Shown here one piece after another: positions 1,813 through 57,400 of a stretch of 64,000 bases of DNA (within the stretch, counting starts at the first letter, position 1; each line of letters opens with the position of its first letter). Under the pieces are notes generated by a model. The model was given only the letters and a program-made list of their open reading frames with translations, made no database searches and was not told the origin of the DNA. The stretch covers positions 1-64,000 of the forward strand of contig CAJINV010000016.1 in assembly GCA_905178155.1 (NCBI GenBank), read 5' to 3'. Both the position numbers and the translations under genes were made by a program. This stretch comes from Amoebophrya sp. A120. Its lineage: Eukaryota; Protista; Dinoflagellata.

Positions 1813-4800
1813 ATGACCGGCGCACCAGAAGATGCAATGGAAAAGATGCTGCCTCAACAACCAGCACCGAGGACGTGGTCCGCCGTGCAAGGACTTGGTG
1901 CTAGTACCAAAAAGCCCAAGAAAAATAATAAAAACCCTCTTTCTGCTCACAACAAGGAAGTACTACGTCAGGCCACGACGACACTGCATGCGGATGCCGC
2001 AACCAGCACGGAAACCCTCTCTGAGACCCTGCCCAGCCTCGCGGTGCAGCGCGAGCAGGCGGAGCAGGAGATGCTGCTGGATTTCCCTTTTGATTTACGG
2101 AGAACGCAGTTAATCGCCAGGTTGTTCGAGCTGGTGCAAGACCACGCGGAAGAGAAGTCCACGGTGGTGCAACAAGATGTCGCGCAACTCTTTCTCTGTA
2201 TTCACAGGAAATAATTTCCCCTGCACGTACAAATGCTATTTCCGCATGACAAAACTTGCCTCCAATCTGAGTCAGCATGACAGGAAGTTGGTTCGGCACA
2301 CTCCAAGTGAAAAATAGCGCAACCTGTCATGCATTTTGCACATGTGCCGCAGGAAATTGGTATGGCATACTCTCCGCCGGGATTCTCGAGGCCAACGTGT
2401 ACTTCTACCAGAGTGAAGAGATTGACCAGGGGTGCGTGATCGGCCCCAGTGTCTCCTTACAGGAAGTCGTGCAGCAGTTTATGAAATGTAAAAATGTCTG
2501 GGTCTGGAAGAATGCACGTTTGTCATGCTTGTCTGGCATGACTCGGGAATCTGTGTTGCATAGGCACGAAAAAGCCTTCTTACCTGTCATGCAAAAACGC
2601 AGTTTGCCATGCGGAATACGTAAGACATGGCAGCCAAAAAATTTGTGATGCATAGCTGTGTATTGCAGTACGTCTATCATTCATTTTTAGCATTACAAGT
2701 TTCCAGACCCAGACATTTTTACATTTGATACAGTTGTTGGTACAGCAGAACGAGAGCAGCAGCTTTCAAGGCCTAGAAAATATCCTGTGCAAAAGTATCG
2801 TATTCGTATAAATGCAAGTCTTGCATTACAAATCTTCTTCTTGAGGCAAATCCGCATTACAAATTTTATTTCTCATGCTGAGGAAATTTGTGATGCATTT
2901 ATACGAGTACGATACTTTTGCAATTCATAGAAAATGGTGGTGGTGAGCAAAATGACCCCCTAGATCACGATCCTTTCGTGTTAGACGACCGCTTATGTAT
3001 CACCCAGGAGCTCTTCGAGTCCTTACTGCAAGAGATGACAAACCTCGAGCTGGCACAATGCGTCGACGCGGTACTGGATCACGCATTGCAAATGGAGACC
3101 AGTTGGGGGATCAGCTGTCCGATCCACAACAGCGGTCATCTTCCAGGTGGTCAACACGGGACCACGACGAGTTCATCGCTGAAGCTAAAAGGTGCAAACG
3201 GGATCGCCCTCTATGAAAACGACCTTTTCCTGGCGGACTCGATGTCGCATGCCATATTTCGCATCAGAAACTGGAGCGGAAATAATAATGGGGGAGCGAG
3301 TTCTTTGGGAAATAACCTGACGAATCGAAATAGCAGTACTGCTGGAGTGACCGGGTTGGCGGGAGGAGGTGGTGTTGGGAACAACAATCTTCCTGGTATT
3401 CTTGCACTTGCTGAATCCACCATCAATGCGGTCCTCATCACGTTGAGAGTTCTTGTTGTAGTCAGAGTCTCTGTACGAGAACGAGTACGACCTGCTGCGC
3501 TTAAAAATCTACTGGTGATGTTGTAGACTGTTGACTACGTCGTACTGCCGCGTTACTTGTTCGTCAAACATAGTTCTTTACTTCATCGATGATCTTTCAG
3601 TAGAAAAATCTCGCCGCTTATGTTTTCCTATTATCCTATCTAAATCAGGCCCCACGTCCTACCAGTTGCACCAGCACGACCACTATCAAGTGTAAAAGTG
3701 TCTGGGTCTGGAAACTTGTAATGCTGGGCGGCGTATCATGAGGAGGCTACAAGTGCTGGCTCAGCATGACAAGTTTCTGAGCTTCTTGGTGTTGCCTATT
3801 CTGCATGACAAACTGCGTTTCTGCATGACAGAAAAATGGGGGTCTTGGGTAATGTGCATGACAAATTTAAGAGTCATGTGAGACAAGCATGACAAACTTG
3901 CATTCTTCCAGACCCAGACATTTTTACAGTTGATAACCACCGGTCGGGCTCTACCACGACCAGCGGGGGCAGCAGCGCGACCGGCAGCATTGTGTATATG
4001 AAATGCAAAAGCATCGTACTAGTAGAAATCGCATGACAAATTCTCTCAGCATGAAAAATGGAATCTGTAATGTGGATTTAGGTAAAGAAGGAAATTTGTA
4101 ATGCATGACAGCGATTACTACGAGTGCGATACTTTTGCACAGCATTGTGTACAACCCGCACCAGCAATACAGCCCGACGAGCGGGGGCGGGGGCGGTTCT
4201 TTCGGCGGGGGCAACAGCACGTCGAACGCGGCGGCCAATAGTTCGTCGTCACCTTCTCGAGGAGGCGGACATCACCAGCAGCACCCTTTTGCCCACCAGA
4301 ATTCTACTACTTCCTCATCCGCAAGCCAGAACCTCGAGCTTTTCGCGGGTAAACTGAAAAACCCGGGTTTCCGGGACGGCCCGAGAGCCCTGGCCCAGTT
4401 CAACGGCCCCTCTGGGCTGTGCATCTGCCGCAGAACCGAGCAGCTTTACGTCGCGGACACGAGGAACGACAGCATCCGCGCGATCGATTTGATCTCCGGC
4501 CTGGTGCAAACCTTGACGGTGCAGTCGGTGGATTTTATTGGCTTGTCCAACCCAGTGGACATTTGCATAGTGTACGGTGACTTCGACTACGAAGACAATG
4601 AGTCCTCCGACAACAACAGTTCTGGAGATGAGGAAAATAACCGGCTGAATGGAAACAACTCCGATGGTGGCAACATACGAGAAGGTACAACCGCTCCCCC
4701 TACTGCTACCGCTCATTTGTCATGCAAAATCCCAATATATGCAGTCGCTCTCGCTGCCTCATAGTCATATCACTACAGTTTGCGTAACAAATTCCGGAAC

Positions 4801-7800
4801 AAGCCGAAACAGTACTACACTGGGCGCACCAAATTTGTCATGCGTAGGCTTTACGCGTGCTGGTGTTTGTATTCGTATTGCTGTACATGCTAAAAAAATG
4901 ATGGGGAGGCGGGGAAGTCCGAGTTGTGCATCTTCATACAAGAATTCTGACGACGAGAACGATAACGCGAACAAACCGAGGCTGGAGCAGATCCAGGAGG
5001 AGGACTCCGCCGAAGTGGAACTGGAAGACGCGTCCGAGCAATTCGCGAACGCTGGGGGGGCTGGCGGGTTATCCGGGTCGATTATGGAAGCGGCTAGCAG
5101 CAGGCGGAGAATGATGTCGGACTTGTACAACATATCAAATGCAAATATGTCTGGATCTGGAAAGGAGGAACTTGTAATGCGTGTCATGCATACCAATACC
5201 TGGAAAATCTGTGTTGCATGAGCAGCAAATGGGCTCCTGCTTCCCTTGTCATGCAAAAACGCAGTTTGTAATGCGTGTTAGGCATTAGTGGCGCTTGCTT
5301 CGGAAGCTTGTCATGCTTCGCTGCCATTGAAAGCGTTGCAATCATGCGCAACTCAGCATGACAGGGTTCCAGACCCAGACATATTTACATTTCGTACAAC
5401 AGGCGGCGGTCCGCGAGGTTCAGCTTAGCGGATGAGTACGGCATTACGCCTATCGTATTTAAAAACGTTCCCAACCCATAGGATAGTCGTAATGCAAATC
5501 TGCATGCTGGAAATGTTTCTCATGCGGAGCCCCATGCGAAGCATTCTCTAGCCACGTTTTGGAATTTGTCATGCTCCAATCAGCATGATATACTAAATCT
5601 GTAATGCTGCTGAGCTAGCTCAAACAGCACGACACTACGACTCCAAATTTGTCATGCGAAACAGCCAAAGCTTGTGGATTTGTCTAGCCGATTCCCCATC
5701 TTGACCATGGGGTGGGGACGTTTTTACGTAGGATAACGCCGAGTGGGAAGTCGTCTGTCCGGACGAGCCGGAGGACCTCCCGGGCGTACACCTCTTATCC
5801 TGTGCAAAAGTATCGTATTCGTAGTAATCCCATTCATGCATTACAAATTTCTTTCTCAAGTTAAATCCGCATTACAAATTTCCTTTCTCATGCTGAGGAA
5901 ATTTGTATTGCAATTCATACTTACTAGTACGATACTTCTCCACAGGATACCTCTGATTCGATGACAACGACGAGAAGAACGTCTCTCAATCTATTAGACC
6001 ACACGAGCGGGAACGTGATCGACAGTCTGCGAGAGTTGTCCGGGGTTATCAAGTGTAAATAGTGTCTGGGTCTGGAAGAGTGCATGTTTGTCATGCTTGT
6101 CTGCCATGACTCTCAAATCTGTCACGCACGTTACCCAAGAGCGCCATTTTTCTGTGATGTAGAAACGCAGTTTGTCATGCAGAATAGGCAACACATAGAA
6201 GAAGCTCAGAAACTTGTCATGCTGAGCGAGCACTTGTGGCCTCCTCACGATACGCCACCCAGCAGCACAAGTTTCCAGACCCAGACGCATTTGCATTTGA
6301 TAGGAGTGGCGAATTCCCAATTCGACAAGCTGCCCGTATGGGATTCTCAATTGTTACATTCTCAACTGTTACAGGAATTTGTCATGCAAAAGCACCATCA
6401 TCATCCTCACGATCAAGCTACTCCGCATGACAAATTTGGCAAGGCCTAAAGCGCGCCTAAATCTGTGCGGAATTCGTAATGCTACAGGTGCAACCTTCCC
6501 CCTTGTACTTTTCCAATTCTTGCATCACAAGTTCATGTAACAGTTCTTGAGAATGTAACAGTTGAGAACGCCATAGCCCGACCTGGCGATTGCTTGCGAC
6601 CACTCGGTTTTTGTGATTAAACGGTCTGGCACTTTGGAAATGTCCTTCGTCGCGGGGAACATTTTATCCAGGAGAAAACACCCATCCCCCCATCCATTGG
6701 TTGCATGACAAACAAAGGAGCTTATTCATGTTTTGCATGACAAATTGGATGGGGATGGGTGTTTTTTTCTGGATGCGTTTCCGAATACGGCTACAAGGAC
6801 GCGGCGAAGGGTTCGGACGCGCGGTTTAGCCAGATCCGGGGAATTTGCTCGATTCGGAATTCTATCAACTGCAACCTTATCGTACTAGTTAATGAATTGC
6901 AATACTTACAAAGTGACTCCGCATTAAGGATATCCGATATTCAAGTTTGTAGTTTGGATTTACCTTAGCAGCGTAGAGTTGAGTTGTAGTGCATAAGTGG
7001 AACTACTACGAGTACGACTACGTCGGTACTTTTGCATTGGATAAGTTCCGTCTTCGTCGCTGACCATTGGAACAACGCGGTCCGGTGTATCTATCCAGTG
7101 AAAATATGTCTGGGTCTGGAAACTTGTGATGCTGGCTTGGGAATGGTGGACACACTGCAATACGCAGCCAAACATGACAAATTCTTAAGCTGCTATGTGT
7201 TCTTGCGAGGTCTGCATGTGCAGGGCAAACTGCGGCTGCGAGTTCTGCATGGCAGACTGGGGTTTTGCACGGGAGGCAAGAGACTCTCATCCTGCTCATG
7301 CATCACAGAGGTAGGAGTCATGAGAGACAAGCATGACAAACTTCTACTCTTCCAGACCCAGCAGATCGATATTTGCAATGCATAGCATCAATTTGAAAAC
7401 CACGGGGGTCGACACGGTCATGGACTTTGAGCCAAACGGGCCGCTTATCTTGAGTAAAAATGTCCTCATACCAGAGTTGTCATGCAAATGCGCAATGAGA
7501 GCAACATTTGTAATGCGCGTCTCCATGAAAGGCACTTCCACTCGTGTTTTGGACTTTGTAATGCTGTAGGCAGGATGGGAGGCTGGATTTCTCATCCGGC
7601 TTCCCTTGCTAACCAGCACTACACTGCAGATGGAAGCTTTTCATGCGCAGCGCCCAAAACTTGGAGATTTGTGTTGCTGATTTACCAACTTGACTATGGG
7701 GTGGGGACGTTTTTACACAGAATACCGCTGAAACTGACAGCCTCCGACTCTGGGTATTTGTACGTTCTGGACTCCGACACAATTCACATGTGCAACATTT

Positions 7801-10800
7801 TGAAAATCTGTTCGGTGCAGCGGGAAAATCTGAGCACGTCCGGAGTTATCCACAGTAAATTTCCCGTACACGTGCAAATGCGGTCTCTGCATGGCAAGAC
7901 TTGGCTTCGATCCTAGTTTAATAGCATGACAAGTTTCACACTCCAAATTGGGGAAATTTGTGATGCATCTTGTACATGTACGGGAATGGGAAATTTGTAT
8001 TGCATAGGAGTGAATGGAAGCTCACTGGGCACCTTGTCGTTCCAGAACTTGCAGAAGCAAACGCTTTCTGGCATCGGAAATCATGCTGCTGGTGCAAGCA
8101 ATACAAGAAGCAGCATCGGTGGAGCTGCCGGTGGTCCTGTGCCGCCGACAACTGGAGCTGTATCTACTGCATCGCCCGCCGTCGGTGGTGGTGTGAGCAA
8201 GGGCACTTTGCTGGGGGGAAAGAGTCCCATTCTCTCCGCTAGGAAGCTTTCCTTCACACCGAACCTGAACACGAAGACCGAGAATAACGAGAACACCTCC
8301 TCCGCCAGCAGCTCTAGCGGCGGTGCAGAGACGACCAGTGCTGACAGCAACCAACTTAACGTCAACAGGAACCAACCCCGGTCCGGGTCCTTCTTAGACG
8401 CGAATTGGCGCACTGTATGATGATTTGCAAATATGTCTGGGTCTGGAAGATCCTAAACTTGTGATGCTGTCTCTGGATTCTAAACAAAATTGTGTAGCAT
8501 GACCAGCAAGATGAGGGCTCCAGTTTGATGTCCTACGCGGAGAGGGCATTTCTCATGCGGTAGAGGCATCGCATAGCCGTCTGAAAATCTGTGATGCTAG
8601 GACATGCATCACAGACATCATGGGTCATGCAAAATGTGCATGTTGACAAACCTGGCAATCTTCCAGACACAGACATATTTGTAGTTGACACACTGCCACG
8701 GATCACAAGAGTTTTCAGGATATGCTGTGCCAAAGTATCGTACTCGTAGTAATCGCAGTCATGCATTACAAATTTTTTTGTCAATGTAACTCCGCATTAC
8801 AAATTTCATTTCTCATGCTGAGGGAATTTGTCATGCATTTATACGAGTACGATACTTTTGCAATTCATACAGGAAGAACGGAAACGAAAGCTGTCCGCGG
8901 CTGCAGTGGAGTTCAATTTTGCCGCGGCGGCCGCGGGCACCATGGTAGCAGGTGGTGGACGAGGAGTTCCTCTTGGTGCGTCAACTTCTTCTACGGGAAA
9001 AATATATGCTGGTACTTCGACTTCCTTTCCCACCCCATGCACAGTGCCCAAAGTCGTCGTATCGGTACTACCCGCAGGATCAGCAGCTGCATCTACTTTC
9101 CATGCCGGAGCGACCGGCGCAGGAGCAGGTTCACAAACTGCGCCCCACGGCGCAGCTGTGGTTGGTTTCTCACTGGACGACGATGATGACGATGATGAAG
9201 AAGACAGCGAGACGGAAAACGATTCGCGTTCGGAATCCGCGGTAAGCTCCAGAACATCCAAGACAACCTCCACTACAAACAAGAACAACCAAGGAATAAA
9301 TGGTAATGGAAATGAAAGCTCGACGTCCACCTCCAAGGTCGTCGTGGATACCGATACCAAGAACAATCCACCGAATGGAGCGGTCGTTTCGATTGTGCAA
9401 GTGCAGGTGCCCGGGTCACCGGTGAAAAGCAAGAGTCATTTATCGGCGTCGGCGGAAGTAGGCTCAGCTGGCTCATCTAGTACGGGCAAAAGCGCCAGCT
9501 GCAATGGTCCTCTACTACAGGACGTCGCAGGAGATCAGCATAGTCCTCGCGATGCATCTTCATCAAAGACTGTTCAAAATAACCTGAACCTCCTTCAACC
9601 TGTCAACTCCTCCGCGTCCAATGCCTCCAGTTCCCGCCGTGGCAGTTTTTCCGATCCTTCGATTCTCAACGCCCCGAACCTCCCCGGTTTCAACCCAAAC
9701 AACTTGACCAATATGAACTGCAAAAGTATCGTACTCGTATAAATGCATTACAAATCTTCTCAGCATGAGAAATAAAATTTGCAATGCGGATTTGACTTAG
9801 CGAAAAGATTTGTAATGCTTGATTGGAATACGAGTACGATACTTTTGCACAGGATAACCAACCACGGGGACCAAAACGCGAATTTGCTCATGATGCCAAA
9901 TCATCAAATGTAAAAATGTCTGGGTCTGGAAGAATGCAACTTGTAATGCGTATTTCAGAACACAGAAAAGTCTCTCATGCATACGTAGCAAAAGCTGCCC
10001 ACTTTCTGTCAGCAAAGTAGGGGACTTGTCATGCGGATTCGGCATTGCGGAAGCTTCTCGAAACCTGTGATGCTAGAGCTTCCATGCCAGACCTTCTGTG
10101 TCATGCAAAAACAGCATGACTCTTCCAGACCCAGACATTTTTACATTTGATACAAATTCGAACAACAGCTCACAACTTTTGGGCGGCGCAAATACCGCCG
10201 GAACGACTTTGCTAAACAACTCAGCGGCGAATTCCAACATCACAAAACGCGGGTCGTCCGCCCCCGTGGTTCCAGTTGCGTTGCGATCACTCGTCCCCGG
10301 CGCCAGTCTCCATCTATGACAGTGCACAACTCGTCCCCCTCCCCCTCATTTGTCATGCAAAATACCCAATCCGCCCTTTGCCTCTTGGCACTGTTTGCAT
10401 GACAAGTTCTGGTAGCCCAAATAGCACTACAATTTGTCATGCAAAAATCGGCACTCTTGCTGATGCTTGTATTGCTGTTCATGCTATACAAATGAGGGGG
10501 AGGGGGAGTTGTGCGCTGTCATAACATCCTGCTTTGTTGCAAATGTCCACGGCCCGAGAACCGGTCAAGGAGGGCTGTATGCATTGCAAAACCAAAAGTA
10601 TCGTACTCGTATAAATGCACTACAAATTTTCTCAGCATGAGAAATAGAATTTGTAATGCAGGTTTATCCTAAGAAAAGGACTTGTAATGCATGACTGCAA
10701 TTACTACGAGTACGATACTTTTGCACAGGATAGGCTTTTCCGGATCGCAATTCCGTGTCTCCGTTGCGTCTTCGGTTTCCGACGGGGACAACGAGGGCGA

Positions 10801-13800
10801 TTCCGTCGCGTACACAAAATCGATCCAGTCGGGCAACTATCCTGTGCAAAACTATCGTATTCGTATTGCAGTCATGCGTTACAGATCTTCTTCTTAAGGT
10901 AAATCCGGGCATTACAAATTTTATTTCTCATCATGCTGAGGAAATTTGTAATGCATTTATACGAGAAGTGCGATATTACTTTTGCAGTTCATAGCAACCA
11001 CGGAAAGCGGAAAATTGTGGGTGGTACTGGGAATAGAGCCTGGCAAAAAGTCCCGTTCGGGCTGTCAGAGGTGTTGAACCCAGATGCGGCTGGGAACGCG
11101 GGGGGTGGACGTGGCGGGTTGGTATCGCAAGGAAAAATCCCCCCTCCCCTTATTGAAGAGGTAGGCTGTCCTCGAAAATTTGTGTTGCTGATTTGAGGTC
11201 ACAAATCACGTTTGTGCTGCAAGAAGACAAGGGCAGCAGCTTCCGTCCCATTATGGAGCCGGTTTGTCATGCTGTTGCGCCAACATTGCGGAAGCTTTTC
11301 ATGCTAAGCGCCTAAGTCAAAGCCTCTCTACTCCGGCTTGATATGGGTCTGCAGTCCTCTCCAGCAAGACAAACGCGATTTGTGTACTCAAATACTGCAT
11401 CACAGATTTCGTTTTCGATATTTATGGGGAGGGGGGATTTTTCCTCTCAATAGTTGGACTCCCGCAGCTTGAGTTCCACGTCCGGCCCTTCTCCCCATCC
11501 GAGTATTTCGGTGCAGCACAGCCGGTCCAGGAATTTCATCTTCACCGGCGGGCCGATTTTGGGTTCCTCTTTCGGCATTTTAGGTGGCAGTGTCGTTGGT
11601 GGTGGTACAGCTGCCCACGCGCAGAGCATCAATCCGCAAGCCGCTTGGGGCCCGAACTCCATGCCGCTGTGTCTGGCGCTGCACGATCTCGCGAGCGAAG
11701 CCGCCCGGATCGACGACCGGAACCCTCGGTTCTGTGCGCAGCCGTTGGTCATGAAAAGAAGTTCGACAGATATTTTGTGCGGCGGTGCTGGTGGTGGTGG
11801 AGGTGGTGGAAGTGGGTACTATGCTGACCACCAACAGGATCCTTTTCTCCACTACCGGAGGAGCTCGAACAAAGACAAAGCGAGTTCGTCTCGTCGCGGC
11901 AGCAGCAGCGCCCGACATTCGATCAACGCCATGGGAGGTGGGGCAGGACCAGGTCAAAACGCGACCTTTGCCGGCGCGGGCGGAAGTGGTGGCGGTGGCA
12001 CCTCCTCATCCAGGGGTGGAGGCACAAGAACTTCTGATGTTGAGCATGGAAATAAAGCCGCGGCAGCGGGGCCGCCACATCAAGATGAAGACTCTGTGAT
12101 TCACAGAGGCCTAGAAGAAGATTTGCAAGCGTTTTTCCCGGGTATAAAGCTCTTCAAGGACAAAGAAAATTATCCTGAGGAAGACGACTTCGACTCACCA
12201 TCCACCGCAGGCCATCTTCATCTCAATGATCTTGATGTTGACAAAAGCAAAAATGCAAGACCTACTCGTACTCCGCAATATGATGGTGATACCAGCAACG
12301 ACGTAAGAACCGCGGGTTTAGCAACGTCCTCTCAGCACCAGCCGAATCAAAAAACAAGACACCCGCTCTCTCGCCAGCAATCCGGGCTGCAGGTGCACAC
12401 GGCCAACTCGAGCCGGAAACCCAGCGTGACGCTCCAGCAGGGCTTGGGATTCCTGTTGCCACAGCGACGCCCGAGCAACGCGTGGCTTTTGAACAAAGCA
12501 ATGATGATGGGAACAATGCATAATGAGGGTCTGCTCGTCGTACAACCTGGTGGTGGATTAGGTCAGCAACCAGGCAGCTCCTCCTTTCTCAGCCTCGGAA
12601 ATTATTATAGCAGTGGCGCCAACGGCAACGCGGCGATGTCCTCTGTCTACAAAGACCTCCCACGCAGCACCTACGGGCCGACGACGAGGCAAGGGCGGAG
12701 CAATGTCTTCAGCGGTTTTGGTCCTTTCAACTCAAGCTGCATGGTATGCATTGCAAAAGTATCGTACTACGCATATATTGCATCACAAATTTTTTCAAGA
12801 GAAAAAATGCAACTTGTAATGCTATTTCACCTAAAAATTGGGATATTTGTCATGCACGATAGCAATTACAACGAGCGCGATACAACTTTTGCAGTGGATA
12901 CATGGCAAGCTCCACCGTCCACCCGTATGCCGCCAGTGGGATCGTGTGTGGACTGAACGTATCCTGTGCAAAAGTATCGCACTCGTAGTAAATAATTGCG
13001 TTTTTGCATTACAAATTTCTTTCTCAAGGCAAATCAGCATTTACAAATTCCATTTGTAATGCTGAGGAATTTTGATGTAATGCGATTTCTACTAGTACGA
13101 TCAACATGCTTTTGCATTTCATAGAACGGCTACGGCTCGGGTAGCTGCACGACAAATTTGCTGTCCGCCTGTAACGGAACAACGTACTATCCACCCGCGG
13201 GCCACTGTCCGGGCGGGGGTGGTCTGTTTGGAGGAAAGAGCAGCAACGGAATGATGAACGACTTCTACACGCTATTGTGAGGAAAAATCCCCCCTCCCCA
13301 TACCAAAAAAGGGCACTACTGAAAATTTGTGATGCTGATTTGTGACCACAAGTCGTCCATGTATTGCAAGAGGGCAAAGACAGAGAATCAGCCGCGTTTG
13401 GCAGGCTCTTTGTAATGCTGTAGTATCGCCTACAGAGGATATGCCTGCCTTGCTAGGCGCCTACAGAAAAACGCCCCTGCTCAGGCCCTGCATCTGCCTG
13501 CAGTCCTCTACTGCTAGACAGATTGGATTTGTGTACACAAATCCCGCATCACAGATTACCGTTTTGATATGTGGAGGGGAAATTTTTCACTTTGATACAC
13601 GCTCCTCAACCTCCCGCGCCTGTCCCTGTTCGTCGGCTTGAGTTACGAAACAAAAAAACTGCGCCAGTGGACTTAGGTTTCTTCGGGTGACAGCATGACA
13701 AATTTGTTCTGCATGACACAGAAGTCCTGTCATGCAGAATTAGTATGGGATGGAAAACACCTGTACAATAGGAGTTCATGGCTGGCTGGCATGACAAGTG

Positions 13801-14988
13801 TAACAGTGTTGCATGCTTTCTTGCATGACAGACTTACACTTTCGCGGTTTTTCTTCTTGCATATGAGTGAGGCTCCGTTCATTCTGAAAATCTGCCCGCC
13901 GAAAAAATGGTACACGGAGAACGACAAACAATTTCCGCGGTTTCACGCCATCGCCGTGGACAGTAGACGGTGTCTCCTCAGTGATGCGTCCTCGCATCAG
14001 GTGTTTGTCATCAACCACGAGCGGCAGACGAAAGACCGGATCGCGGGATGCGGAAAATGCGGATTTCTATGGAGTTCTCAAATGTTATATTCTCAACTGT
14101 TACATGATTTGAATTTGTCATGCAGAGCCACGATTATCATCTGCACGATCAAGCTGCTCAGCATGACAAATTCTGGAAGGGCCAAACAGGCTGACAATCT
14201 GTGCCAAATCTGTCATGCAAGACGCGCAATACCCCCCCTTTCACATTTTCCATTGTTGCATCACAAATCCATGGAACAGTTGAAGAGAATGTAACATTTG
14301 AGAACGCCATAATTTCTGGACGGTCCGTTGGACATCTGCAGGCTGAACCAGCCGCTCGGGCTGGCTTTGGACAGTACCGTATGACAATGCACAACTCCGA
14401 CTCCCCCCCCTCATTTGAATTTGTAGCGCAATTCTAGCAACAGAAACCACCTCAAAAATGCAGTCTCTGCATAACAAATCCACGCACAGAGCATAGTGCA
14501 GTTTGGGCTTCCAGAACTTGTCATGCAAGGACAGCCAAAAGGCTCAGACAGGATTTGACATTTTTGCATTACAAATGAGGGGGAGGGGGAGTTGTGCACT
14601 CTCATATGCCAATGGGTTCATTTACATCGCGGACAGCGGAAACCACAGGATAAGGTGTGTCAACTTGTCCACTGGTTTTTTGACCACCATTGTCGGAAAC
14701 GGGAACCGAGGGTGCGGAAGAAATTCGTTGGACACACCCTACGAAGTGCAGTTCTGCCCGCCTCATTTTTTGCTGATAACCTGTGTAGACAACTCGGTCC
14801 GGATATCCACAAAAAAAAACTACACGCATCCAATTTCATGTCACGCAAAAAATGCATCAGATTCATCAGTTTTTGTCTTTGTCATGCAAAAAATAGATCG
14901 ACATCTTCGGAATGGGTTTCCTTTTTGTGGATAGCGGACGTTTGATTTGAAGTTGAAGTGTCTCAACACGATTCTGATCGGGAGTTGA
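1813..14988 (+). CDS. Large NHL-repeat (beta-propeller) protein with long Ser/Gly low-complexity tracts; 31 non-canonical introners plus 1 GT-AG intron (3396-3648)
   Basis: Manual splicing gives a continuous ORF to TGA 14986-14988. NHL motifs: GFRDGPRALAQFNGPSGLCI..LYVADTRNDSIRAI; GYKDAAKGSDARFSQIRGI..VFVADHWNNAVRCI; GFLDGPLDICRLNQPLGLALD..IYIADSGNHRIRCV. Start uncertain (1813 or 1837). Confidence 0.85.
2199..2369. mobile_element. Introner, family J
   Basis: Direct repeat ctctg/ctctc; TAT..ATA ends; aatttcc/ggaaatt inverted repeat. Confidence 0.75.
2480..2730. mobile_element. Introner, family A (TIR core tgtctgggtctggaa)
   Basis: Direct repeat cagtt/cagtt; about 30-bp TIR. Confidence 0.92.
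2781..2929. mobile_element. Introner, family B (TIR core gcaaaagtatcgtactcgta)
   Basis: Direct repeat gaaaa/gaaaa. Confidence 0.92.
3684..3935. mobile_element. Introner, family A
   Basis: Direct repeat accac/accac. Confidence 0.92.
3997..4146. mobile_element. Introner, family B
   Basis: Direct repeat gtgta/gtgta (identity extends to 12 bp). Confidence 0.88.
4676..4938. mobile_element. Introner, family D (diverged)
   Basis: Direct repeat caaca/caaga; right end gagttgtgcatcttcata. Confidence 0.8.
5133..5396. mobile_element. Introner, family A
   Basis: Direct repeat caaca/caaca. Confidence 0.88.
5451..5735. mobile_element. Introner, family C (TIR core aaaaacgtcccc)
   Basis: Direct repeat acgcc/acgcc. 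Confidence 0.9.
5796..5949. mobile_element. Introner, family B
   Basis: Direct repeat cctct/cctct. Confidence 0.92.
6047..6302. mobile_element. Introner, family A
   Basis: Direct repeat ggggt/ggagt. Confidence 0.9.
6337..6575. mobile_element. Introner, family G (TIR core ttctcaa-tgttacattctcaa)
   Basis: Direct repeat gcccg/gcccg. Confidence 0.9.
6665..6775. mobile_element. Introner, family I (short)
   Basis: Direct repeat cattt/cgttt; inverted repeat aaaacacccatcccc/ggggatgggtgtttt. Confidence 0.85.
6863..7043. mobile_element. Introner, family B (diverged)
   Basis: Direct repeat aattc/agttc. Confidence 0.8.
7092..7384. mobile_element. Introner, family A
   Basis: Direct repeat gtatc/gcatc. 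Confidence 0.88.
7446..7724. mobile_element. Introner, family C
   Basis: Direct repeat ccgct/ccgct. Confidence 0.88.
7847..8006. mobile_element. Introner, family J
   Basis: Direct repeat ggagt/ggagt; aaatttccc/gggaaattt inverted repeat. Confidence 0.85.
8416..8690. mobile_element. Introner, family A
   Basis: Direct repeat cactg/cactg. Confidence 0.88.
8721..8869. mobile_element. Introner, family B
   Basis: Direct repeat cagga/cagga. Confidence 0.9.
9712..9856. mobile_element. Introner, family B (opposite orientation to 2781)
   Basis: Direct repeat accaa/accaa. Confidence 0.92.
9902..10152. mobile_element. Introner, family A
   Basis: Direct repeat caaat/caaat. Confidence 0.9.
10315..10523. 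mobile_element. Introner, family D (TIR core gtgcacaactc-cccctcccc)
   Basis: Direct repeat ccatc/acatc. Confidence 0.9.
10578..10732. mobile_element. Introner, family B
   Basis: Direct repeat ggctg/ggctt. Confidence 0.88.
10838..10993. mobile_element. Introner, family B
   Basis: Direct repeat gcaac/gcaac. Confidence 0.9.
11123..11452. mobile_element. Introner, family E (TIR core ggaaaaatcccccctcccc)
   Basis: Direct repeat gttgg/gttgg. Confidence 0.9.
12745..12900. mobile_element. Introner, family B
   Basis: Direct repeat catgg/catgg. Confidence 0.87.
12960..13123. mobile_element. Introner, family B
   Basis: Direct repeat gaacg/gaacg. Confidence 0.88.
13273..13597. mobile_element. Introner, family E
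   Basis: Direct repeat cacgc/cacgc. Confidence 0.9.
13644..13863. mobile_element. Introner, family H (TIR core aaaaaactgtgtaagtgtaa, diverged)
   Basis: Direct repeat tgagt/tgagt. Confidence 0.82.
14068..14311. mobile_element. Introner, family G
   Basis: Direct repeat atttc/atttc. Confidence 0.9.
14380..14606. mobile_element. Introner, family D
   Basis: Degenerate direct repeat taccg/tgcca; removal restores the NHL repeat. Confidence 0.87.
14804..14933. mobile_element. Introner, family I (short)
   Basis: Direct repeat ccgga/gcgga; inverted repeat tatccacaaaaa/tttttgtggata. Confidence 0.85.
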
Positions 14989-43900: not shown

Positions 43901-46900
43901 ACGAATTCGCGGACCAATTGAAGAAGTTGACCCAGGTGCCGGATTTGCTTAGCGAGACAGCGAAGGAAAAATTGCTGAGCAACTTCGACAAAAACGGCAA
44001 GGCGAAAAACGAACTGAACAACATCAGCCTGGTATGCAAAAGAAAAACTGTGTAAGTGTAAATTTGTGTTGCAGAACATGCAACAGAGTTGCGCCTGTCA
44101 TGTCAGACAGCCATGAACAAGTCCTCTTTTCATGTGTGTTTTCCCTTACAAGCCACGCGTAACAGGTTTTCTCTGTCATGTAGAGCAAATTTGTGATGCT
44201 GTTTCTCAAAGAAACAAGGCACACTTACACACTTTTTCTCCTGGATACCTGCACTGCATCGACGTGACCGTGCTGGAGCCGAGTTTCCGCGGCAACGGGT
44301 CCGAGGACTTATGGGAGTGTCAGGATCGAAATTGACAAAATCGAAAAATTTGTAATGCATAAAATGTAGGGTACATATGGCCTGTATTGGGGAGCAGGCA
44401 AATGAGACCGATTGCAAGCCTGTTTAGGGAAGGCGATGCGCTGCCGGAGTAGCATGACAGGAGCAGTCTTCTTTTCCGAAACAGCATGACAGGCTGGATT
44501 TTGTTGCTCCCGAAATTTGTCATGCACCACTTGGAAACTAGGCTCCAACTGGTATCCATTTTATGCATCACAAATTATTTCGATTTTGTTGATTTCGATC
44601 CTGACACATCCATAGGACTTTGAGGTGAAGTACCAGGGCGAGGACGGGGTGCTCTGGAAGTCGATTATCGAGGCGTGCGGGCAGTTATCCTGTGCAAAAG
44701 TATCGTATTCGTATTGCAATCATGCATTACAAATCTTTTATAAGTAATCAAATCCGCATTACAAATTTTATTTCTCATGCTGAGGGAATAATTTGTAATG
44801 CATTTAAATACGAGTGCGATACTTTTGCAATGCATAGCAGTGCGTCCGGTTCACGGTGGACGCGGAATTTCTGACCGGGTCCCTCCACTTGGCCCGGGAG
44901 CGCGGCTCCGGGGGGACGGCAAAGAGGAGAACGCTGTTTGAGCAATTCGCCACGCGTTTTCGCATATCAAGTGTAAAAATGTCTGGGTCTGGAAGAATGC
45001 GCGACTTGTCATGCAGCTTTTCCATGACCCATGAGGTCTGGAATGCAGGGCCTAGCGTGACAGATTCTGTGCGATCTTTCTGATGCCTATCCTGCATGAG
45101 AAACTGCCTCCCGACTTGGTCAAAACTGGACGACTTTTGGTAAGCATGCAACACAGATTTTTGGATGCTTCAGATTTAGCATGACAAGTTGCATTCTTCC
45201 AGACCCAGAGGACACTTTTACACTTGATACCGCAGGGAGGACTATGATTTGGATGCGGATGAGAGCAGCCCGATGGAGACCGACGGGCAAGAGGGGAACG
45301 AAGACGAGGACAGTGGTATCAAAAGGAAAAATCCCCCCTCCCCATATCAATAACGTATCCGTCTGAAAATTTGTGATGCAGATTTGTGGCCACAAATCCT
45401 GCCTGTCTTGCAGGAAGGCAAATTGAGAGAGGGCGCCGCGCCATGCAGGCGGTTTCTCATGCTGTAAGGCCTACAGGGCAGACGTCTGCCATGCTAAACG
45501 CCTACACGACCAGAAGGCCCCCGTCTAGGTTTGCGATCTGCGTGCAGTCCTCTACTGCAAGACAGATCTGATTTGTGTATACAAATCCCGCATCGCAGAT
45601 TTCCGTTTTGATATGGGGAGGGGGAATTTATTTTCCGTTCGATAAGCGTGGACGCAGACGAAAGAGAGGAGAAGCGGCGGGAAGAAATCGAAAAAGAAAA
45701 GCGGAAAGTGTTTCATTCCATGATGAACCTCCCGGAAGAGGCACAGAACATCTATGACTACGTGATTTGGAATAATCCTTTCCCGACCATCACGAGGGAC
45801 GACGTGAAGAAGGCCAAAGATATGAACAATTCCGCGACGAAGTGGCTGTTCGCTTTGTATCCTGAGTAAAAACGTCCTCACCCCATAGTCAAGATGGTAA
45901 ATCTGCAAGGCAAATCTACAAGCTTAGGCCGTTGCGCATGACAAGTTCGGCCTCGTACTGTGCTCCTGTTTAGGTAGTTCGTCAGCATCACAGATCTAGC
46001 ATAGCATGATGATTCTAGCATAACAAATTCCAAAACACGAAGAGAAATTGTTTCTCATAGGACTCCGCATGAGAAACATTTTGAGCATGCGTCTTTGCAT
46101 GACAACTCTGGAGTGGGGACGTTTTTACAAATGATAAGCTGCTGCCCAAGTTCATCGCGTCGACCAAGAACGTGCTGAAGGCCACCGGAAAATGCTGCAT
46201 CACGGTGACCCCGTCGCAAGCTTTGGGCAAGATGCCGGAGAAGGACGCCAACGGGCGAATCGTGAAATGGACCTCAACCTGGAGCCTGAAGCAAGCCGCT
46301 GCGGAGAATTCCTTTCCGAACAGTGAAGAGCTAGGCTTCGACACCCGGCATGGCATGCATTTCTACAAAGCGTCGTATGGGGATTTTCGCTCTCTCAGCC
46401 AAATTGTGTCGGAAAAGGTACTATGTATGATATTTGAATCCCGGTCCCATTCTAAAAATATAGATAATTTATGTAAGTCGCTAGTCTGCTAAACAACAGA
46501 AGTTGAGCTACCTAATCAGATGAGCGATGAACAAGTAGAGGATGTATCATCTTCATGGTTCTTGCTTTTCTTTCGCTTTCCCACAACGTCACAACATCGG
46601 AAAGACAATAAATCCCCGACCCAAAAAATTGCACAGGACAAACAAGTAAAGGCCGGCGCCTCGTACATTGAGACCGCCGAAGGGCACTCCCGCGTGATCA
46701 GCTACATGTTCTTCAACGCGATGAAGAACAAGAAAGCTCAGAAGGACGCGACGCTGCGAAAGAATATGCCAAAGTGGCGAGGTTTCGATGAGGCGACCCA
46801 GCTGCAACTGCCGGAAAACTACAGGAATAGCATTTCGAAAATAAAACTACCCTCATCCACGACCGCCACCGACAGTGCTTCATCTCCTACAGCTGCTGCT

Positions 46901-47200
46901 GCTACTATCGCAGAGGAGAACGACCTCAGTTACGCAGAGGCCTTCCGGTCCATCCTGCTCATCTTCGCCAAGCGCGTGGTGCCGCGCCAACACAAGGAGG
47001 ACGGGGGACCCCCGTTGTTTTCCGCTGCGAACGGGTTTATCACCGATGTGTTCCCGAAACTGCTGCAGAGGCACCTGCAGCCCGGGGCCCGCAGAACTTT
47101 CGTGGACACTTGGAAGAGAAAGTACAAATGCGACGAAAACGGGGACGCGGCTGGGACGAACATTGCGAAGATGACAGGCGGGTCGAAGATAAACATATGA
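40935..47200 (+). CDS. BMT5/DUF2431-like rRNA uridine-N3 methyltransferase-domain protein; 10 introners in the CDS and 1 GT-AG intron
   Basis: After splicing: LRILFVGSGNMGW, VRFTVDAEFL, YDYVIWNNPFP, LLPKFIASTKNVLKATGKCCITV, TWSLKQAA. Order and spacing match the recalled DUF2431 motifs. Confidence 0.65.
41789..41938. mobile_element. Introner, family B
   Basis: Direct repeat gacga/gacga. Confidence 0.92.
41978..42126. mobile_element. Introner, family B
   Basis: Direct repeat agaag/ggaag. Confidence 0.9.
42232..42483. mobile_element. Introner, family A
   Basis: Direct repeat cgtaa/cgtaa. Confidence 0.92.
42815..43770 (-). mobile_element. Nested non-autonomous Helitron/Helentron-like element
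   Basis: Interrupts the family D consensus gcatgacaaa|tgaggg; terminal GC hairpin ending CTTG-TT on the minus strand; internal duplication and minisatellite; no clear TSD. Confidence 0.5.
43461..43718. repeat. 13-bp minisatellite (ggtcacctgtcaa), about 20 copies
   Basis: Head-to-tail copies with no spacers. Confidence 0.95.
44033..44247. mobile_element. Introner, family H
   Basis: Direct repeat cctgg/cctgc. Confidence 0.88.
44310..44614. mobile_element. Introner, family F
   Basis: Direct repeat ggact/ggact. Confidence 0.92.
44686..44836. mobile_element. Introner, family B
   Basis: Direct repeat gcagt/gcagt. Confidence 0.92.
44965..45229. mobile_element. Introner, family A
   Basis: Direct repeat tcgca/ccgca. 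Confidence 0.9.
45317..45644. mobile_element. Introner, family E
   Basis: Degenerate direct repeat agtgg/agcgt. Confidence 0.87.
45858..46136. mobile_element. Introner, family C
   Basis: TIR clear; direct repeat eroded (ctttg/agctg), but the same 5-nt register restores the frame. Confidence 0.85.
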
Positions 47201-47205: not shown

Positions 47206-47414
47206 TATCCAAGAACAAAACGTTATTAGTGTAAATTTGTGATGCGCAACATGCAAAGTGATTGCGTCTGTCATGCTTGGCATGCATCGTAGGGTCCATT
47301 ACAGGGCGTTTTCACGTACTAGCTGCGCATTACAGGTTTCTGCTGTCATGCAAAACAAATCTGTGATGCTGTTCCTCCAAAAAAGTTACACTTACACAGT
47401 TTTTTTCTTGGATG
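47206..47414. mobile_element. Introner, family H, in presumed 3' UTR
   Basis: Direct repeat tagat/tagat directly after the TGA stop. Confidence 0.85.
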
Positions 47415-54449: not shown

Positions 54450-57400
54450 ATGGCGTCTTTCGCTTCGACGAATTGCTTGGCCGCGCGCCGGGGGCAGAGC
54501 AAGAAGAATATCAGAATGTCGCTGCTCTCTTTTCTCCTCGCTGCTTGTGCCGGTCCTCGTGTTTTCTTCGAATTTGAGTGCAGCTTTGTTACAGCCGTAC
54601 ATTTGCAGATTTCCGCGCCTGCTTCGAGTTCGAGATCATCGGCTCGTGGTCCACAGATGAAAAAGAAACTGGATGGCACTACCACGGTGGATAGTACAAG
54701 AACGTATGTGGAGTGTTTGTGGCGAGCAGGGCAGGTGCAGGTTGAGTGCCATCGCAGTGGCACCTCGTTGGACGCGATGGTTAGAAACAGTGGTATGGTC
54801 AAAAAGGAAGAATCTCCGGCTGGGGCGGCCGCCGTAAACAAGCGCTCCGGTTCTCGGGGAAGGAAAGGCAGACCGCAGAACAAAGGTCGTACCGGCGGGA
54901 ACAACTCTCCCGCGGCCGGCGAAGGTTCACGTTCAGCTGGTGGTGCATATGATCAACGACAGGACCCGGAACCGCACCAGCAGCCTCCCGCACTACAAGG
55001 TGGAAAGGATTCCGTGCGCTGGAAGGCAAGGGAGATCAAGGCCAGTTGCGATCGCCTCCCGGAGAATGTTTTTGACAAGGAAGGGGCTTTTTCTAACGAT
55101 GCAACCACAACCATGAAAAAAGTCGCACTCGACAAGTTCAATCTGACGGCACGGCCGTCATCGATCTCCGCCTACCACGGCTTTGCGGTGCTGTGGCGGG
55201 AGCTCGGGCGCGAGTCCGAGTACCACGTCGTGAAGTCCGCGGCGCGCTGTCTCGCCGCCCGGCAGGCGTTCGAGAAGGGAAAGTGTGCGGCGGTGTTGTA
55301 CCCCAACAGCCAGAATCCGCTGCACGCGTTTGCCGACAAACAATGGAGAGATACTGGGTTAATAGAGAAGGTGAGGGACGCCAAAGAGAAGGTGATCGCC
55401 CCGGTCGAAGATCACTTTCGCGGACTCGTCCAAGCGTCTCGCTTCGAGGAGCTCGCGGAGAGGGCCGCTGGCAGCGTGGAGGCTGCAGATGCACCGAGCG
55501 TAGCGGGGGGCTGTGTCACCGAGGACGACTACGAGGAAGATGCAGGTGTGGACCGGGACGCGACGGCAACCGAAATCCGGGAGGCGGCGAAGCAGGTGGA
55601 GGCCGAGAAGAGACGCGCGAAAGCAGGGCAGGCCGCCGCGAGTACGAAACAGCAGCACGAGCAGGAGGAGAAGGATATGGCCGAAGTGGAACGTTTACTG
55701 CATGATCATGAACAGGTCGAAGAGAAGAGAATCCGTCTGATATCGCGAGGAAAAATTATCCCCTCACCTCCCCACGTGCTGCAAAAGGATGTAACTAGGA
55801 CGAGACTTCTCAAGCAAGATTTGTGAGTACTACAAACTGGCTCTCGATATTGCTACAACGAGGTGGCAAAGGAGAAAGGCACACTTGCGGCCTGGTTGTA
55901 CCGGCAATTTCTTGTCAATGTGCATGTGGGCCACCACCAGTGTCTCTTGTTTACTGACATGTCACCAGCTTGCTTTCTGTATTCAAAGTCAAACCCAGCA
56001 ACAGAGGCAGATGAAGTTGCTATTGCTTATTGAGAATCTCTTAAATGGTGGGGGAGATAATTTTTCATTTCGATATCAAATTGAGGAGAAGGTGGCCCAA
56101 TACGCAAGACAGGAAGAGGAGCAAAAAGAGCGGGGTCACAGAGAGAGAATGAAATACTTGTTGGAGTACAAAAGGCGGAGCGCGAAAGCAATAGAGAACA
56201 TTGATCCAATCCTCGCCCTAAAAAGCGCGCGCACAAAGGAAAAAAGGAACAAGATCATTTACGAAGATTTGCCACAGCAGGCGGTGCTGCAAGGTCGCTC
56301 CCGGGAAAGCGTCGAGATGGAGAAGAGGGTAAGGCAGCATAAAAAGGCCAATGTGGAAGAGCTGAAGATCTATCTCGAGCGACTCTGTGGCACGAAAGCC
56401 ACGAAAGATCTACTTCTACGAGGCACTGAGACCACTTGCGATCCGGTCTTGCGCAAGGAGCACATGCAGACGCGGCTCGCCACGCTTGGTTGCGCGCGGT
56501 TTTTCCGCGACGACGAAGCCGCCTTCCTCAATTTTACGACTCCGAACTTGGAGGATCTGTTAGAGGACCGCCCGGAGGACCTCCGTGCGGCTGCTGCTGC
56601 GGCAAATGATAAAGCCGAGCTTTCCGGGGGTCGTGACGAGGCACAGCAGGAAGACGAATCCAAAGTGTTGTGCTTTTTCTACGCATACAAGGGCTTGCGG
56701 GCGGCGTATCGTGGGAGCGAAAAGTGGTTTGGGGCTCGGGTGTTTGGTGCTATGGAGCAGCGCAGAAACAAGGACAAAGAATATGCAACCAACCCGAACT
56801 TCCAGCACTTACCAGCCCCGAACCTTGTCGAGACGATGGAAAAAGACCCGGCCCAAAAACTCGCGATGGGTATTCTGAAAGATTGGAAAAGAAAATTGGT
56901 GGAGTTGGACGTCGGCTTCACCAAGTGGATGGAATCGAGTGCCACCGGCGCTGCTATTGTATTCAGGAACGATAGTGGTCTCTTCACCGTCCGAGAAGAA
57001 CAAGAAGAAAAGAGACACGAAGCAGAGGAAGAGGTGGGCAGCCTGAAGCTGCGGCGGCGTGTTGATAATGTAACCCAGGCTCTGAAATACGAGTCGGAGG
57101 GCCGCGCGGGCCTCTACCATGCTTGGGACACAAATCTGGCCTACACCGAGCAGGCGGAGACCGAGGATGTACGGAGGCGGTTGGAAGACGCAGTCGAAAA
57201 TAAGTTGGCCATGCTTCCTCATCAGCTCCTGGAGAGCGCACGCGGCGGCGCATTCGCGCTGCGGACATTACGGCTGGAACCTGATGCAAAGGATAAAATC
57301 GAAGCAAAAAAGCGATATTTGCGCGATGCCGCGTCAGTGTTCGTCGGTGCAAGTGTCTTGGGGTGGAAGCTTGCCGCGTGGAACGGAGCTGACTTCGAGG

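What the first reader, a model, noticed from the sequence alone, without database searches (positions are those of the whole stretch)
2199..56075. Non-GT-AG intron system: 65 transposon-like elements in about 13 families that share one excision grammar
Seen: each element is [5-bp direct repeat] TAT-TIR...TIR-ATA [5-bp direct repeat], with a few single-base variants at the ends. In all 63 coding cases, deleting the element plus exactly one repeat copy restores the frame and conserved motifs (myosin LAVNPY, SNARE heptads, NHL repeats). The boundaries are generally not GT-AG, yet ordinary GT-AG introns coexist in the same genes. Known: inverted-repeat/direct-repeat introner elements have been reported in Amoebophrya, and as far as I recall their excision mechanism and mobilising enzyme are unresolved. 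Inference: one dedicated machinery both spreads and precisely removes these unrelated-looking families.
Basis: partly seen in the sequence, partly recalled or inferred. Interest (0 to 1): 0.92.

Follow-up and report, generated by a model that had tools for sequence, protein, structure and literature searches.

The report
Amoebophrya A120 introners, cut site narrowed
The 65 short transposon-like inserts in the genes of the marine parasite Amoebophrya A120 are an already published kind of intron, removed from the RNA together with one 5-base repeat and without GT-AG signals, and the data here suggest the cut likely falls one base before their UAU start, where a relaxed ordinary spliceosome would cut.

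Summary
Observation confirmed: 65 elements, 63 coding, 5-bp direct repeat (45 exact), TAT..ATA ends, no GT-AG in any register. The window is Amoebophrya sp. A120, and these are the introner elements of Farhat et al. 2021, so the system is known. RNA-like contigs drop exactly element+5 nt (summed over 10 elements), a DNA contig keeps them, and deposited gene models agree at 19 more. The idea that one machinery both spreads and removes them is unsupported: spread looks like DNA transposition, removal is in RNA, and no transposase was found. Not found in print: (1) imperfect repeat pairs bracket the cut, which the paper left unknown, best at four bases of the left repeat kept, so the intron starts nUAU like the host's GUA donors (the lower bound rests on one RNA contig); (2) repeat identity is not needed for removal; (3) an internal octamer TGT[ACG]ATGC lies in 61 of 65 elements, 16 of 20 families and some GT-AG introns; (4) no element is intergenic. 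The scan noted similar hairpin introns in other dinoflagellate genomes, not this family.

The parts
2199..2369 (.). element, family F9, repeat mismatch at position 5
2480..2730 (.). element F1
2781..2929 (.). element F2
3684..3935 (.). element F1, reverse orientation
3997..4146 (.). element F2, reverse; ends ATT
4676..4938 (.). element, single; starts TAC; right end seen unspliced in run X6
5133..5396 (.). element F1; ends GTA
5451..5735 (.). element F3
5796..5949 (.). element F2
6047..6302 (.). element F1, repeat mismatch
6337..6575 (.). element F4
6665..6775 (.). element, single here (copies in other loci), repeat mismatch
6863..7043 (.). element, single, repeat mismatch
7092..7384 (.). element F1, reverse, repeat mismatch
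7446..7724 (.). element F3
7847..8006 (.). element F9
8416..8690 (.). element F1; ends ACA
8721..8869 (.). element F2
9712..9856 (.). element F2, reverse; RNA-like contig piece ends at 9706 as predicted
9902..10152 (.). element F1; starts CAT
10315..10523 (.). element F5, repeat mismatch
10578..10732 (.). element F2, reverse, repeat mismatch
10838..10993 (.). element F2
11123..11452 (.). element F7; RNA-like contig piece starts at 11453 as predicted
12745..12900 (.). element F2, reverse; removed in RNA-like contig (sum of four)
12960..13123 (.). element F2; removed in RNA-like contig (sum of four)
13273..13597 (.). element F7; removed in RNA-like contig (sum of four)
13644..13863 (.). element F6; starts TAC; removed in X3, also retained in an X6 contig at depth 8.1
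14068..14311 (.). element F4; removed in RNA-like contig (sum of three)
14380..14606 (.). element F5, reverse, two repeat mismatches; removed in RNA-like contig
14804..14933 (.). element, single; RNA takes repeat position 1 from the left copy
16351..16704 (.). element, single; RNA takes repeat position 4 from the left copy
16913..17298 (.). element, single, repeat mismatch; removed in RNA-like contig
17644..17897 (.). element F5, reverse; removed in RNA-like contig
23320..23578 (.). element F1, reverse
24249..24532 (.). element F3
25991..26274 (.). element F3
26313..26620 (.). element, single here (copies in other loci)
26968..27234 (.). element F1
27289..27551 (.). element F1
27646..27864 (.). 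element F6, reverse, just after a stop codon (non-coding)
30089..30241 (.). element, single, inside myosin LAVNPY
31392..31697 (.). element F3 in myosin
32181..32442 (.). element F1 in myosin
32504..32809 (.). element F8 in myosin
33661..33916 (.). element, single; deposited model and A25 orthologue take position 5 from the right copy
33974..34154 (.). element F2, reverse; deposited model takes position 1 from the left copy, the orthologue matches the right copy
34798..35028 (.). element F4 in myosin
35524..35761 (.). element F4 in myosin
35829..36137 (.). element F8, reverse, in myosin
36232..36492 (.). element F1 in myosin tail
37668..37822 (.). element, single here, in myosin tail
37903..38160 (.). 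element F1, reverse, in myosin tail
41789..41938 (.). element F2, reverse
41978..42126 (.). element F2, reverse; deposited model takes position 1 from the left copy
42232..42483 (.). element F1
42621..43802 (.). element F5, reverse, carrying an unrelated non-coding insert of about 950 nt (about 42820-43773); removed whole in the deposited model
44033..44247 (.). element F6, reverse; deposited model takes position 5 from the right copy
44310..44614 (.). element F8, reverse
44686..44836 (.). element F2
44965..45229 (.). element F1, reverse, repeat mismatch (silent)
45317..45644 (.). element F7; deposited model takes position 5 from the right copy
45858..46136 (.). element F3, reverse, three repeat mismatches; position 1 from the left copy
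47206..47414 (.). element F6, reverse, just after a stop codon (non-coding)
55741..56075 (.). element, single, two repeat mismatches
1813..14988 (+). host gene: NHL-repeat protein, 31 elements, one probable GT-AG intron ending at 3647 (its 5' end not fixed)
16182..17975 (+). host gene of about 175 aa (end approximate), 3 elements, GT-AG introns 16753-16865 and 17450-17601
23137..24700 (+). host gene, syntaxin-like by eye (no Pfam hit on separate exons), 2 elements
25623..27639 (+). host gene of 155 aa, 4 elements, GT-AG introns 25672-25860 and 26687-26902
29255..38235 (+). host gene: myosin, 1540 aa, 12 elements, 7 GT-AG introns; identical to the deposited A120 protein P0002 over residues 1-1178
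40935..47200 (+). host gene: BMT5-like protein, 906 aa, 10 elements, GT-AG intron 46418-46636; identical to CAD7969155.1 (GSA120T00025995001)
54450..57645 (+). host gene of 951 aa, no Pfam hit, 1 element

Best explanation
These are the published introner elements of Amoebophrya A120, non-coding inverted-repeat inserts flanked by a 5-base duplication, likely spread by a DNA transposase encoded elsewhere and removed from RNA as element plus 5 bases, likely by the host spliceosome cutting one base before UAU and four bases after AUA. Step 1 (structure shown, enzyme inferred): a DDE-type transposase reads the shared 14-nt end TAT[GC]-6 nt-AAAA, cuts the target with a 5-bp stagger and no sequence preference, and inserts either way round. 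Step 2 (shown): the element stays in DNA and is transcribed. Step 3 (predicted): its ends pair into a stem, so either orientation presents UAU at the 5' end and AUA at the 3' end. Step 4 (length shown, register inferred): the exon keeps four bases of the left repeat and the last base of the right one; the intron reads nUAU...AUA-nnnn. Step 5 (inferred): the 5' end matches the host's GUA donors except at G+1, so a U2-type spliceosome that tolerates any +1 base is the simplest cutter; the 3' cut is set by distance from the stem, not by AG and not by matching the repeats. The octamer TGT[ACG]ATGC is likely a binding site for one protein common to all families; whether it serves transposition or intron marking is open.
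For: Host: exon 40935-41786 is 100% identical to A120 protein CAD7969155.1. Farhat 2021 section 11: A120 repeats start TAT, seven looser bases, then three or more A, with 3-5-nt direct repeats; same logo here. Replication: 421 elements in 145 loci of a second contig set, found without using the repeat: 319 with exact 5-bp repeat, 2 with 4, 0 with 6, flat target logo. Removal length: X3 contigs leave 239, 256 and 273 letters between pieces, equal to prediction for 4, 3 and 3 elements, the last with two GT-AG introns. Deposited models equal my reconstruction at 10 of 10 elements of one gene and the first 9 of 12 of myosin. A25 orthologue prefers +5 over steps of 3 or 6 at 8 of 12 myosin junctions, 4 being unalignable. 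RNA, not DNA: one DNA contig runs unbroken over 14581-17725 at depth 41.9 across three elements. Register: deposited models, built from BLAT transcript alignments, take position 1 from the left copy at 3 of 3 and position 5 from the right copy at 3 of 3 informative sites. RNA piece ends give position 1 left (14804) and position 4 left (16351), and six control piece ends follow the same placement rule. In the second set, keeping 0 bases gives a stop at one site and keeping 1 gives a stop at another; a PDB homologue fits 1-4 at a third. Donor parallel: 12 of 13 GT-AG introns start GTA; elements at this register start nTA in 64 of 65. On 282 oriented elements the first T varies once at 5' ends and 8 times at 3' ends (p 0.038), the third base 10 versus 3 times (p 0.089), uncorrected. 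Ends predicted to pair with probability about 0.8, dipping at positions 4-7. The paper reports a near-complete spliceosome with U1 snRNA undetected.
Against: The lower bound of four bases rests on one contig of one run at one silent mismatch (16351); without it the bracket is 2-4. No per-junction read table was obtained, and X3 and X6 are one sample whose RNA status is the tool's guess and which may underlie the annotation. At 33974 the A25 orthologue has Pro, the residue of the right copy, while the model uses the left. Mismatched pairs are left A/T, right G/C in 41 cases and the reverse in 24 (31 versus 14 at positions 1-3); if free copies drift to A/T this points the other way, and I cannot explain it. 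Farhat's figure legend calls splice sites variable relative to the hairpin. The xT..Ax excess in Table S4 and in the Gozashti counts fits this register and its mirror equally and is probably aligner sliding, so it is not counted. Nothing here shows lariats or spliceosome dependence, and a spliceosome needing neither G+1 nor AG is demanding. No transposase was found.
Confidence: 0.55

Rival explanations
1. A non-spliceosomal endonuclease and ligase reads the RNA stem and cuts at fixed distances from it, as proposed for euglenid nonconventional introns.
For: No terminal dinucleotide is conserved; both orientations work; an element carrying a 950-nt insert is still removed in the deposited model; ends are predicted to pair. 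The review describes euglenid introns with inverted repeats, target duplications and circular products.
Against: The cut register coincides with the host's GUA donor; slight 5' versus 3' asymmetry follows donor rules; positions 4-7 of the two ends are often not complementary, 25-42 of 65, which suits separate reading of each end.
Confidence: 0.22
2. The spliceosome removes them but the register differs between elements or lies at 2-3 bases kept.
For: The deposited models allow 1-4; Farhat calls the sites variable; mismatch-direction bias and the Pro at 33974.
Against: 16351 needs at least four; all six informative model sites and both stop-codon sites fit one register.
Confidence: 0.14
3. One dedicated machinery both spreads and removes the elements, for example by reverse splicing of the excised RNA or a transposase acting on RNA.
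For: 63 of 65 elements are in coding sequence, 2 just after stops, none intergenic or inside GT-AG introns (p about 3e-20), which an mRNA-based route would explain; all families share ends and an internal motif.
Against: Both orientations of F1 (10 and 5) and F2 (6 and 7) sit in same-strand genes, which reverse splicing would not give; a constant 5-bp duplication with random target is a staggered DNA cut; no enzyme was found.
Confidence: 0.06
4. The elements are cut out of DNA in some nuclei or stages, like ciliate internal eliminated sequences, and the RNA comes from the cleaned copy.
For: Precise loss of one repeat copy resembles such excision (recalled, not from a call).
Against: DNA contig unbroken over three elements at single-copy depth; unspliced forms present in RNA-like run X6. 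Contigs drop rare variants and one DNA sample was laid.
Confidence: 0.03

Closest known systems
Introner elements (IEs) of Amoebophrya sp. A120 (Farhat et al. 2021, PMC7789003)
   Same: Same strain and deposited gene models; TAT start, A-run at positions 11-14, short direct repeats, non-canonical borders, mixed with GT-AG introns, no transposase.
   Different: Nothing in kind. The paper gives repeats of 3-5 nt and unknown borders; here the repeat is a constant 5 bp measured from TAT/ATA, the cut is bracketed, and an internal octamer and exon-only placement are described that I did not find in the sections read.
A120 introner families of Gozashti et al. 2025 (PMC12130899, Dataset S2)
   Same: 58 families; of the 22 rows seen most are classed 'TIR DNA, Unknown', many with element lengths of about 150-340 bp.
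   Different: Automated TSD lengths there range 2-5; family sequences were not in the file searched, so families could not be matched one to one.
Introner-like elements of Polarella and Symbiodinium (Roy et al., bioRxiv 10.1101/2020.10.14.339549)
   Same: TIR transposon origin, TSD partly removed by splicing, both orientations.
   Different: Those recruit GT/GC/GA and AG from the TSD or element; these need neither.
Non-canonical introns of Fritillaria borealis (bioRxiv 10.1101/2025.08.15.670264; review PMC11282704)
   Same: MITE-derived introns with non-GT/AG ends removed by a modified major spliceosome: the working model here.
   Different: Fritillaria ends have fixed motifs (AG-AC, AG-AT); here the end bases come from a random target repeat.
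Euglenid nonconventional introns (review PMC11282704)
   Same: Terminal stem, TSD-like repeats, probable MITE origin, unknown machinery.
   Different: Different end motifs and lineage; circular products are untested here.
IS3EU/GingerRoot and Ginger2/TDD DNA transposons (PMC10045372)
   Same: IS3EU has TA..TA termini; Ginger2 makes 4-5-bp duplications. Candidate enzyme class for the spread.
   Different: IS3EU duplications are 6 bp, not 5; Ginger2 ends are TG..CA (recalled); no transposase is linked.

Membership tests
Amoebophrya A120 introner elements | Lies in the A120 genome | tested here: met
   Two exons 100% identical to A120 proteins
Amoebophrya A120 introner elements | Terminal inverted repeat starting TAT, seven looser bases, three or more A | tested here: met
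   Logo of 130 ends against section 11 of the paper
Amoebophrya A120 introner elements | Direct repeat of 3-5 nt at the borders | tested here: met
   5 bp, 45 of 65 exact; 319 of 421 in a second set
Amoebophrya A120 introner elements | Repeated families | tested here: met
   9 multi-copy families in the window; copies in other loci
Amoebophrya A120 introner elements | Removed from RNA at non-GT-AG borders | tested here: met
   10 elements by summed length in RNA-like contigs; 0 of 65 GT-AG
Non-autonomous TIR DNA transposon (MITE) | TIR, constant TSD, no coding capacity, either orientation | tested here: met
Non-autonomous TIR DNA transposon (MITE) | Cognate autonomous element with transposase | tested here: inconclusive
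   No transposase family among 12 window frames and 100 frames of 260 aa or more in the loci; 7 long copies are nested inserts; the whole genome was not searched
IS3EU/GingerRoot | TA..TA termini | tested here: met
IS3EU/GingerRoot | 6-bp TSD | tested here: not met
   0 of 65 and 0 of 421; 6 bp per PMC10045372
Canonical-site introners (Aureococcus, Polarella type) | GT/GC/GA and AG supplied by element or TSD | tested here: not met
   0 of 65 GT-AG; 29 of 318 on either strand in the second set, near my hand estimate of chance, about 25
U2-type spliceosomal intron | Lariat, branch point, dependence on U2/U6 | not testable with these tools
   Only the donor-register parallel
Euglenid-type nonconventional intron | Excised as full-length circle, spliceosome-independent | not testable with these tools
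   Predicted terminal stem only
Ciliate-type DNA excision | Joined form present in DNA | tested here: not met
   Unbroken DNA contig over three elements in one run; rare forms would be missed

The most novel reading that the evidence does not exclude
Amoebophrya A120 has a spliceosome that needs neither G+1 nor AG: it cuts at n|UAU, measures the 3' cut four bases past the transposon stem, and finds introns through one protein bound to TGT[ACG]ATGC, which marks introners and some GT-AG introns in place of the missing U1 snRNA, making any exon position a safe landing site for a whole transposon superfamily.
Probability: 0.25. Interest if true: 0.82.

Novelty: already known. Interest (0 to 1): 0.42.

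Why it matters
The system is published, so the finding itself is not new. What remains open in print is where these introns are cut and by what. Imperfect repeat pairs, 20 of 65 elements here, act as natural markers that read the cut position from existing RNA-seq, which makes that question testable genome-wide without new experiments. If the register is nUAU, the most deviant nuclear introns described become a relaxed form of ordinary splicing and show how far the spliceosome can drop its terminal rules. The shared octamer gives a bait for the protein that handles all families.

Tried and rejected
Frame restoration as proof of +5: rejected, since +2 and +8 work too. A splice signal hidden in the target repeat: target logo flat in 318 sites and on the sense strand in 217; a C/G excess at position 1 in the window did not replicate. 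Phase bias: 27, 21, 13 over 61 elements, p 0.09. Table S4 and Dataset S2 dinucleotide counts as register evidence: rejected as probable aligner sliding. The joint table was swamped by repeat chimeras from the DNA run; only piece coordinates were usable. Raw RNA run X9 laid 12 reads and is uninformative; no holder was on record as RNA. Deposited protein for the NHL gene, which has ten imperfect pairs: not found. Ab initio GT-AG intron prediction in the second contig set: 141 calls without a CAG signal, too noisy, discarded with its motif density. A at -5 of GT-AG introns, 9 of 13, matching the element's last A: p 0.047 against the local background, kept as a hint only. Transposase search: none. 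An F2 end pattern in viral contigs: 0. Rfam on the window: 0. Myosin exon against PDB: 0. Four element end motifs in one Gozashti supplement: 0, but that file holds no family sequences. Print searches: searches found no later mechanistic paper; 'TGTCATGC' with 'Amoebophrya' found 0 papers. The figures of Farhat 2021, the Current Biology 2023 version of Roy et al. and bioRxiv supplements were not seen and may hold the motif or the register.

Full report
Verdict. The session adds a bracket on the cut position and three anatomical points that I did not find in print.

Catalogue. A strict scan gave 45 candidates, 37 above the terminal-repeat threshold, against 0 in each of 5 shuffles. A relaxed scan gave 58. 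Five were dropped as chance-level or mispaired, one was restored and 11 were paired by hand, giving 65 (one start corrected). The direct repeat is 5 bp: 45 exact, 15 with one mismatch, 4 with two, 1 with three, and no other length fits. Pooled ends read TAT, G or C, six looser bases, then AAAA. Nine families have several copies and 11 are single at 50% cover. F1 and F2 occur both ways round in same-strand genes. No element has GT-AG in any of six registers.

Host and prior description. An exon is 100% identical to Amoebophrya sp. A120 protein CAD7969155.1 and another to an A120 myosin. In Farhat et al. 2021 (PMC7789003) I read the abstract, sections 10, 11, 12, 16 and 25 whole, other passages, supplementary figure legends and Tables S4-S6, but no figures. 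It describes A120 introner repeats starting TAT and ending in an A-run, 3-5-nt direct repeats, 29,850 repeated introns, no A120 transposase, U1 snRNA undetected, and intron borders that remain unknown. From Gozashti 2025 (PMC12130899) I saw passages and 22 of 58 A120 family rows, mostly 'TIR DNA, Unknown'. Of PMC11282704, PMC12005148, PMC10045372, PMC11453091 and bioRxiv 2020.10.14.339549 and 2025.08.15.670264 I saw passages only; PMC12166617 had no hit for my terms.

Replication. An F1 end pattern found 145 loci, 809 kb with overlaps, all from one public contig set whose organism I did not determine. A detector blind to the repeat found 421 elements: 319 with exact 5-bp repeats, 2 with 4, none with 6, and no target preference.

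Removal length and level. Frame restoration fixes length only modulo 3. One lay of reads on 1700-18300 gave usable piece coordinates. Contigs of RNA-like run X3 leave 239, 256 and 273 letters between pieces, exactly the prediction for 4, 3 and 3 elements removed with 5 extra bases, the last with two GT-AG introns. These are sums, not single junctions, and X3 and X6 are one sample. My reconstruction equals the deposited 906-aa protein over 10 of 10 elements, including the 1182-nt one with a nested insert. It equals the deposited myosin over residues 1-1178, 9 of 12 elements, after which the deposited model diverges while the A25 orthologue follows my longer one. The orthologue prefers +5 at 8 of 12 junctions and is silent at 4. 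A DNA contig spans three elements unbroken at single-copy depth, so removal is in RNA.

Cut position. When the two repeat copies differ, the message shows which copy each base came from. Deposited models, which rest on BLAT transcript alignments, take position 1 from the left at 41978, 45858 and 33974 and position 5 from the right at 44033, 45317 and 33661. RNA piece ends give position 1 left at 14804 and position 4 left at 16351; six other piece ends confirm the aligner's placement rule. Among 30 imperfect pairs in long frames of the second set, one excludes keeping 0 bases and one excludes keeping 1, by stop codons; a PDB homologue fits 1-4 at another. A single register consistent with all is four bases kept: n|UAU...AUA-nnnn|. 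Pairs with up to three mismatches are removed, so repeat identity is not the guide.

Against that reading. The lower bound of four rests on 16351 alone. The A25 orthologue has the right-copy residue at 33974. Mismatches run left A/T, right G/C 41 times and the reverse 24 times, which I cannot explain. The published xT..Ax excess fits this register and its mirror and is probably aligner behaviour, so I do not count it.

Mechanism. Twelve of 13 GT-AG introns placed here start GTA, and elements at this register start nTA in 64 of 65; their first two bases are AT 21, GT 19, TT 14, CT 10, TC 1, with no preferred last two. On 282 oriented elements the first T is more constant at 5' than at 3' ends (1 versus 8 variants, p 0.038) and the third base less so (10 versus 3, p 0.089), uncorrected over 14 positions. 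The ends are predicted to pair. I therefore favour a U2-type spliceosome with relaxed G+1 and a stem-measured 3' cut (0.55), over a non-spliceosomal endonuclease-ligase (0.22), a variable register (0.14), one machinery for both jobs (0.06) and DNA excision (0.03). Spliceosome involvement is inferred, not shown. Spread is inferred to be by a DDE transposase acting in trans; TA..TA ends recall IS3EU but its 6-bp duplication is not met. No transposase family was hit in 12 window frames or 100 of the 103 long frames listed from the loci (three were left out as overlaps), and seven long copies are short elements with non-coding inserts. The whole genome was not searched.

Internal motif. TGT[ACG]ATGC or its complement occurs 185 times in 61 of 65 elements and 16 of 20 families, against a shuffle mean of 4, and 11 times in the other 47.8 kb. 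Seven of those 11 lie in 5 of 14 GT-AG introns (2.5 per kb; shuffle mean 0.4, none of 500 reaching 7), against 0.14 per kb in exons and 0.04 between genes. Same-direction copies 31-33 bases apart occur in nine families, and 401 of 421 elements of the second set carry it. Both orientations occur on the sense strand, 443 and 348, which suits a DNA-binding protein or internal RNA pairing. A search for the motif with the genus name found no paper.

Placement. 63 of 65 elements are in coding sequence, two follow stop codons, and none lies between genes or in GT-AG introns. The cause is unexplained; targeting to gene bodies is the simplest inference.

Score. Already known as a system; interest 0.42 for making the published unknown, the border position and cutter, testable from existing data. 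Earlier notes of this scan mention hairpin-bounded introns in other dinoflagellate genomes, unchecked here; none cover this genome or family.

Noticed in passing
window 13614-13893 and 4851-5055: Run X6 holds unspliced contigs over two elements that start TAC rather than TAT (depth 8.1 and 2.4; intergenic depth 0-0.8), hinting at poorer removal; the table shows only the longest pieces, so this may be a selection effect.
   Followed up: partly
window 42820-43773: A non-coding insert with a 106-nt duplication and a 13-nt tandem array sits inside element 42621; it has no match in the loci.
   Followed up: partly
L063 10001-10972, L041 3862-4492, L017 505-1608, L070 11772-12919, L012, L022: Long elements are short ones with nested inserts; L063 has an A-tailed insert with a duplication of about 16 nt at the octamer, inside an RNA polymerase Rpb1 gene; L017 and L070 share one insert family.
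   Followed up: partly
window 19655-21646: Intron-free, GC-rich UDP-glycosyltransferase-like gene (Pfam UDPGT, E 2e-5) with no elements; 50724-52460 also lacks elements, while the NHL gene has 31.
   Followed up: no
window 35829-38235: The deposited myosin model ends at 1213 aa after a repetitive stretch; the A25 orthologue supports a 1540-aa protein.
   Followed up: partly
window 1220-1400 and 22190-22330; 47790-47840, 48390-48430, 49610-49660: Short dispersed repeats between genes, unrelated to the elements, seen by eye in the sequence; 22009-22097 also matches L022.
   Followed up: no
window 58000-64000: Gene-poor region with short tandem repeats, duplicated blocks and an assembly gap at about 62340-62437.
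   Followed up: no
L014 2635-6090: Two adjacent long frames with C-5 cytosine DNA methylase domains.
   Followed up: no
window 2254-2807 and other F1 sites: Summed DNA depth over F1 sites is thousands of times single-copy depth (about 42), consistent with very many genomic copies, though not a copy number.
   Followed up: no
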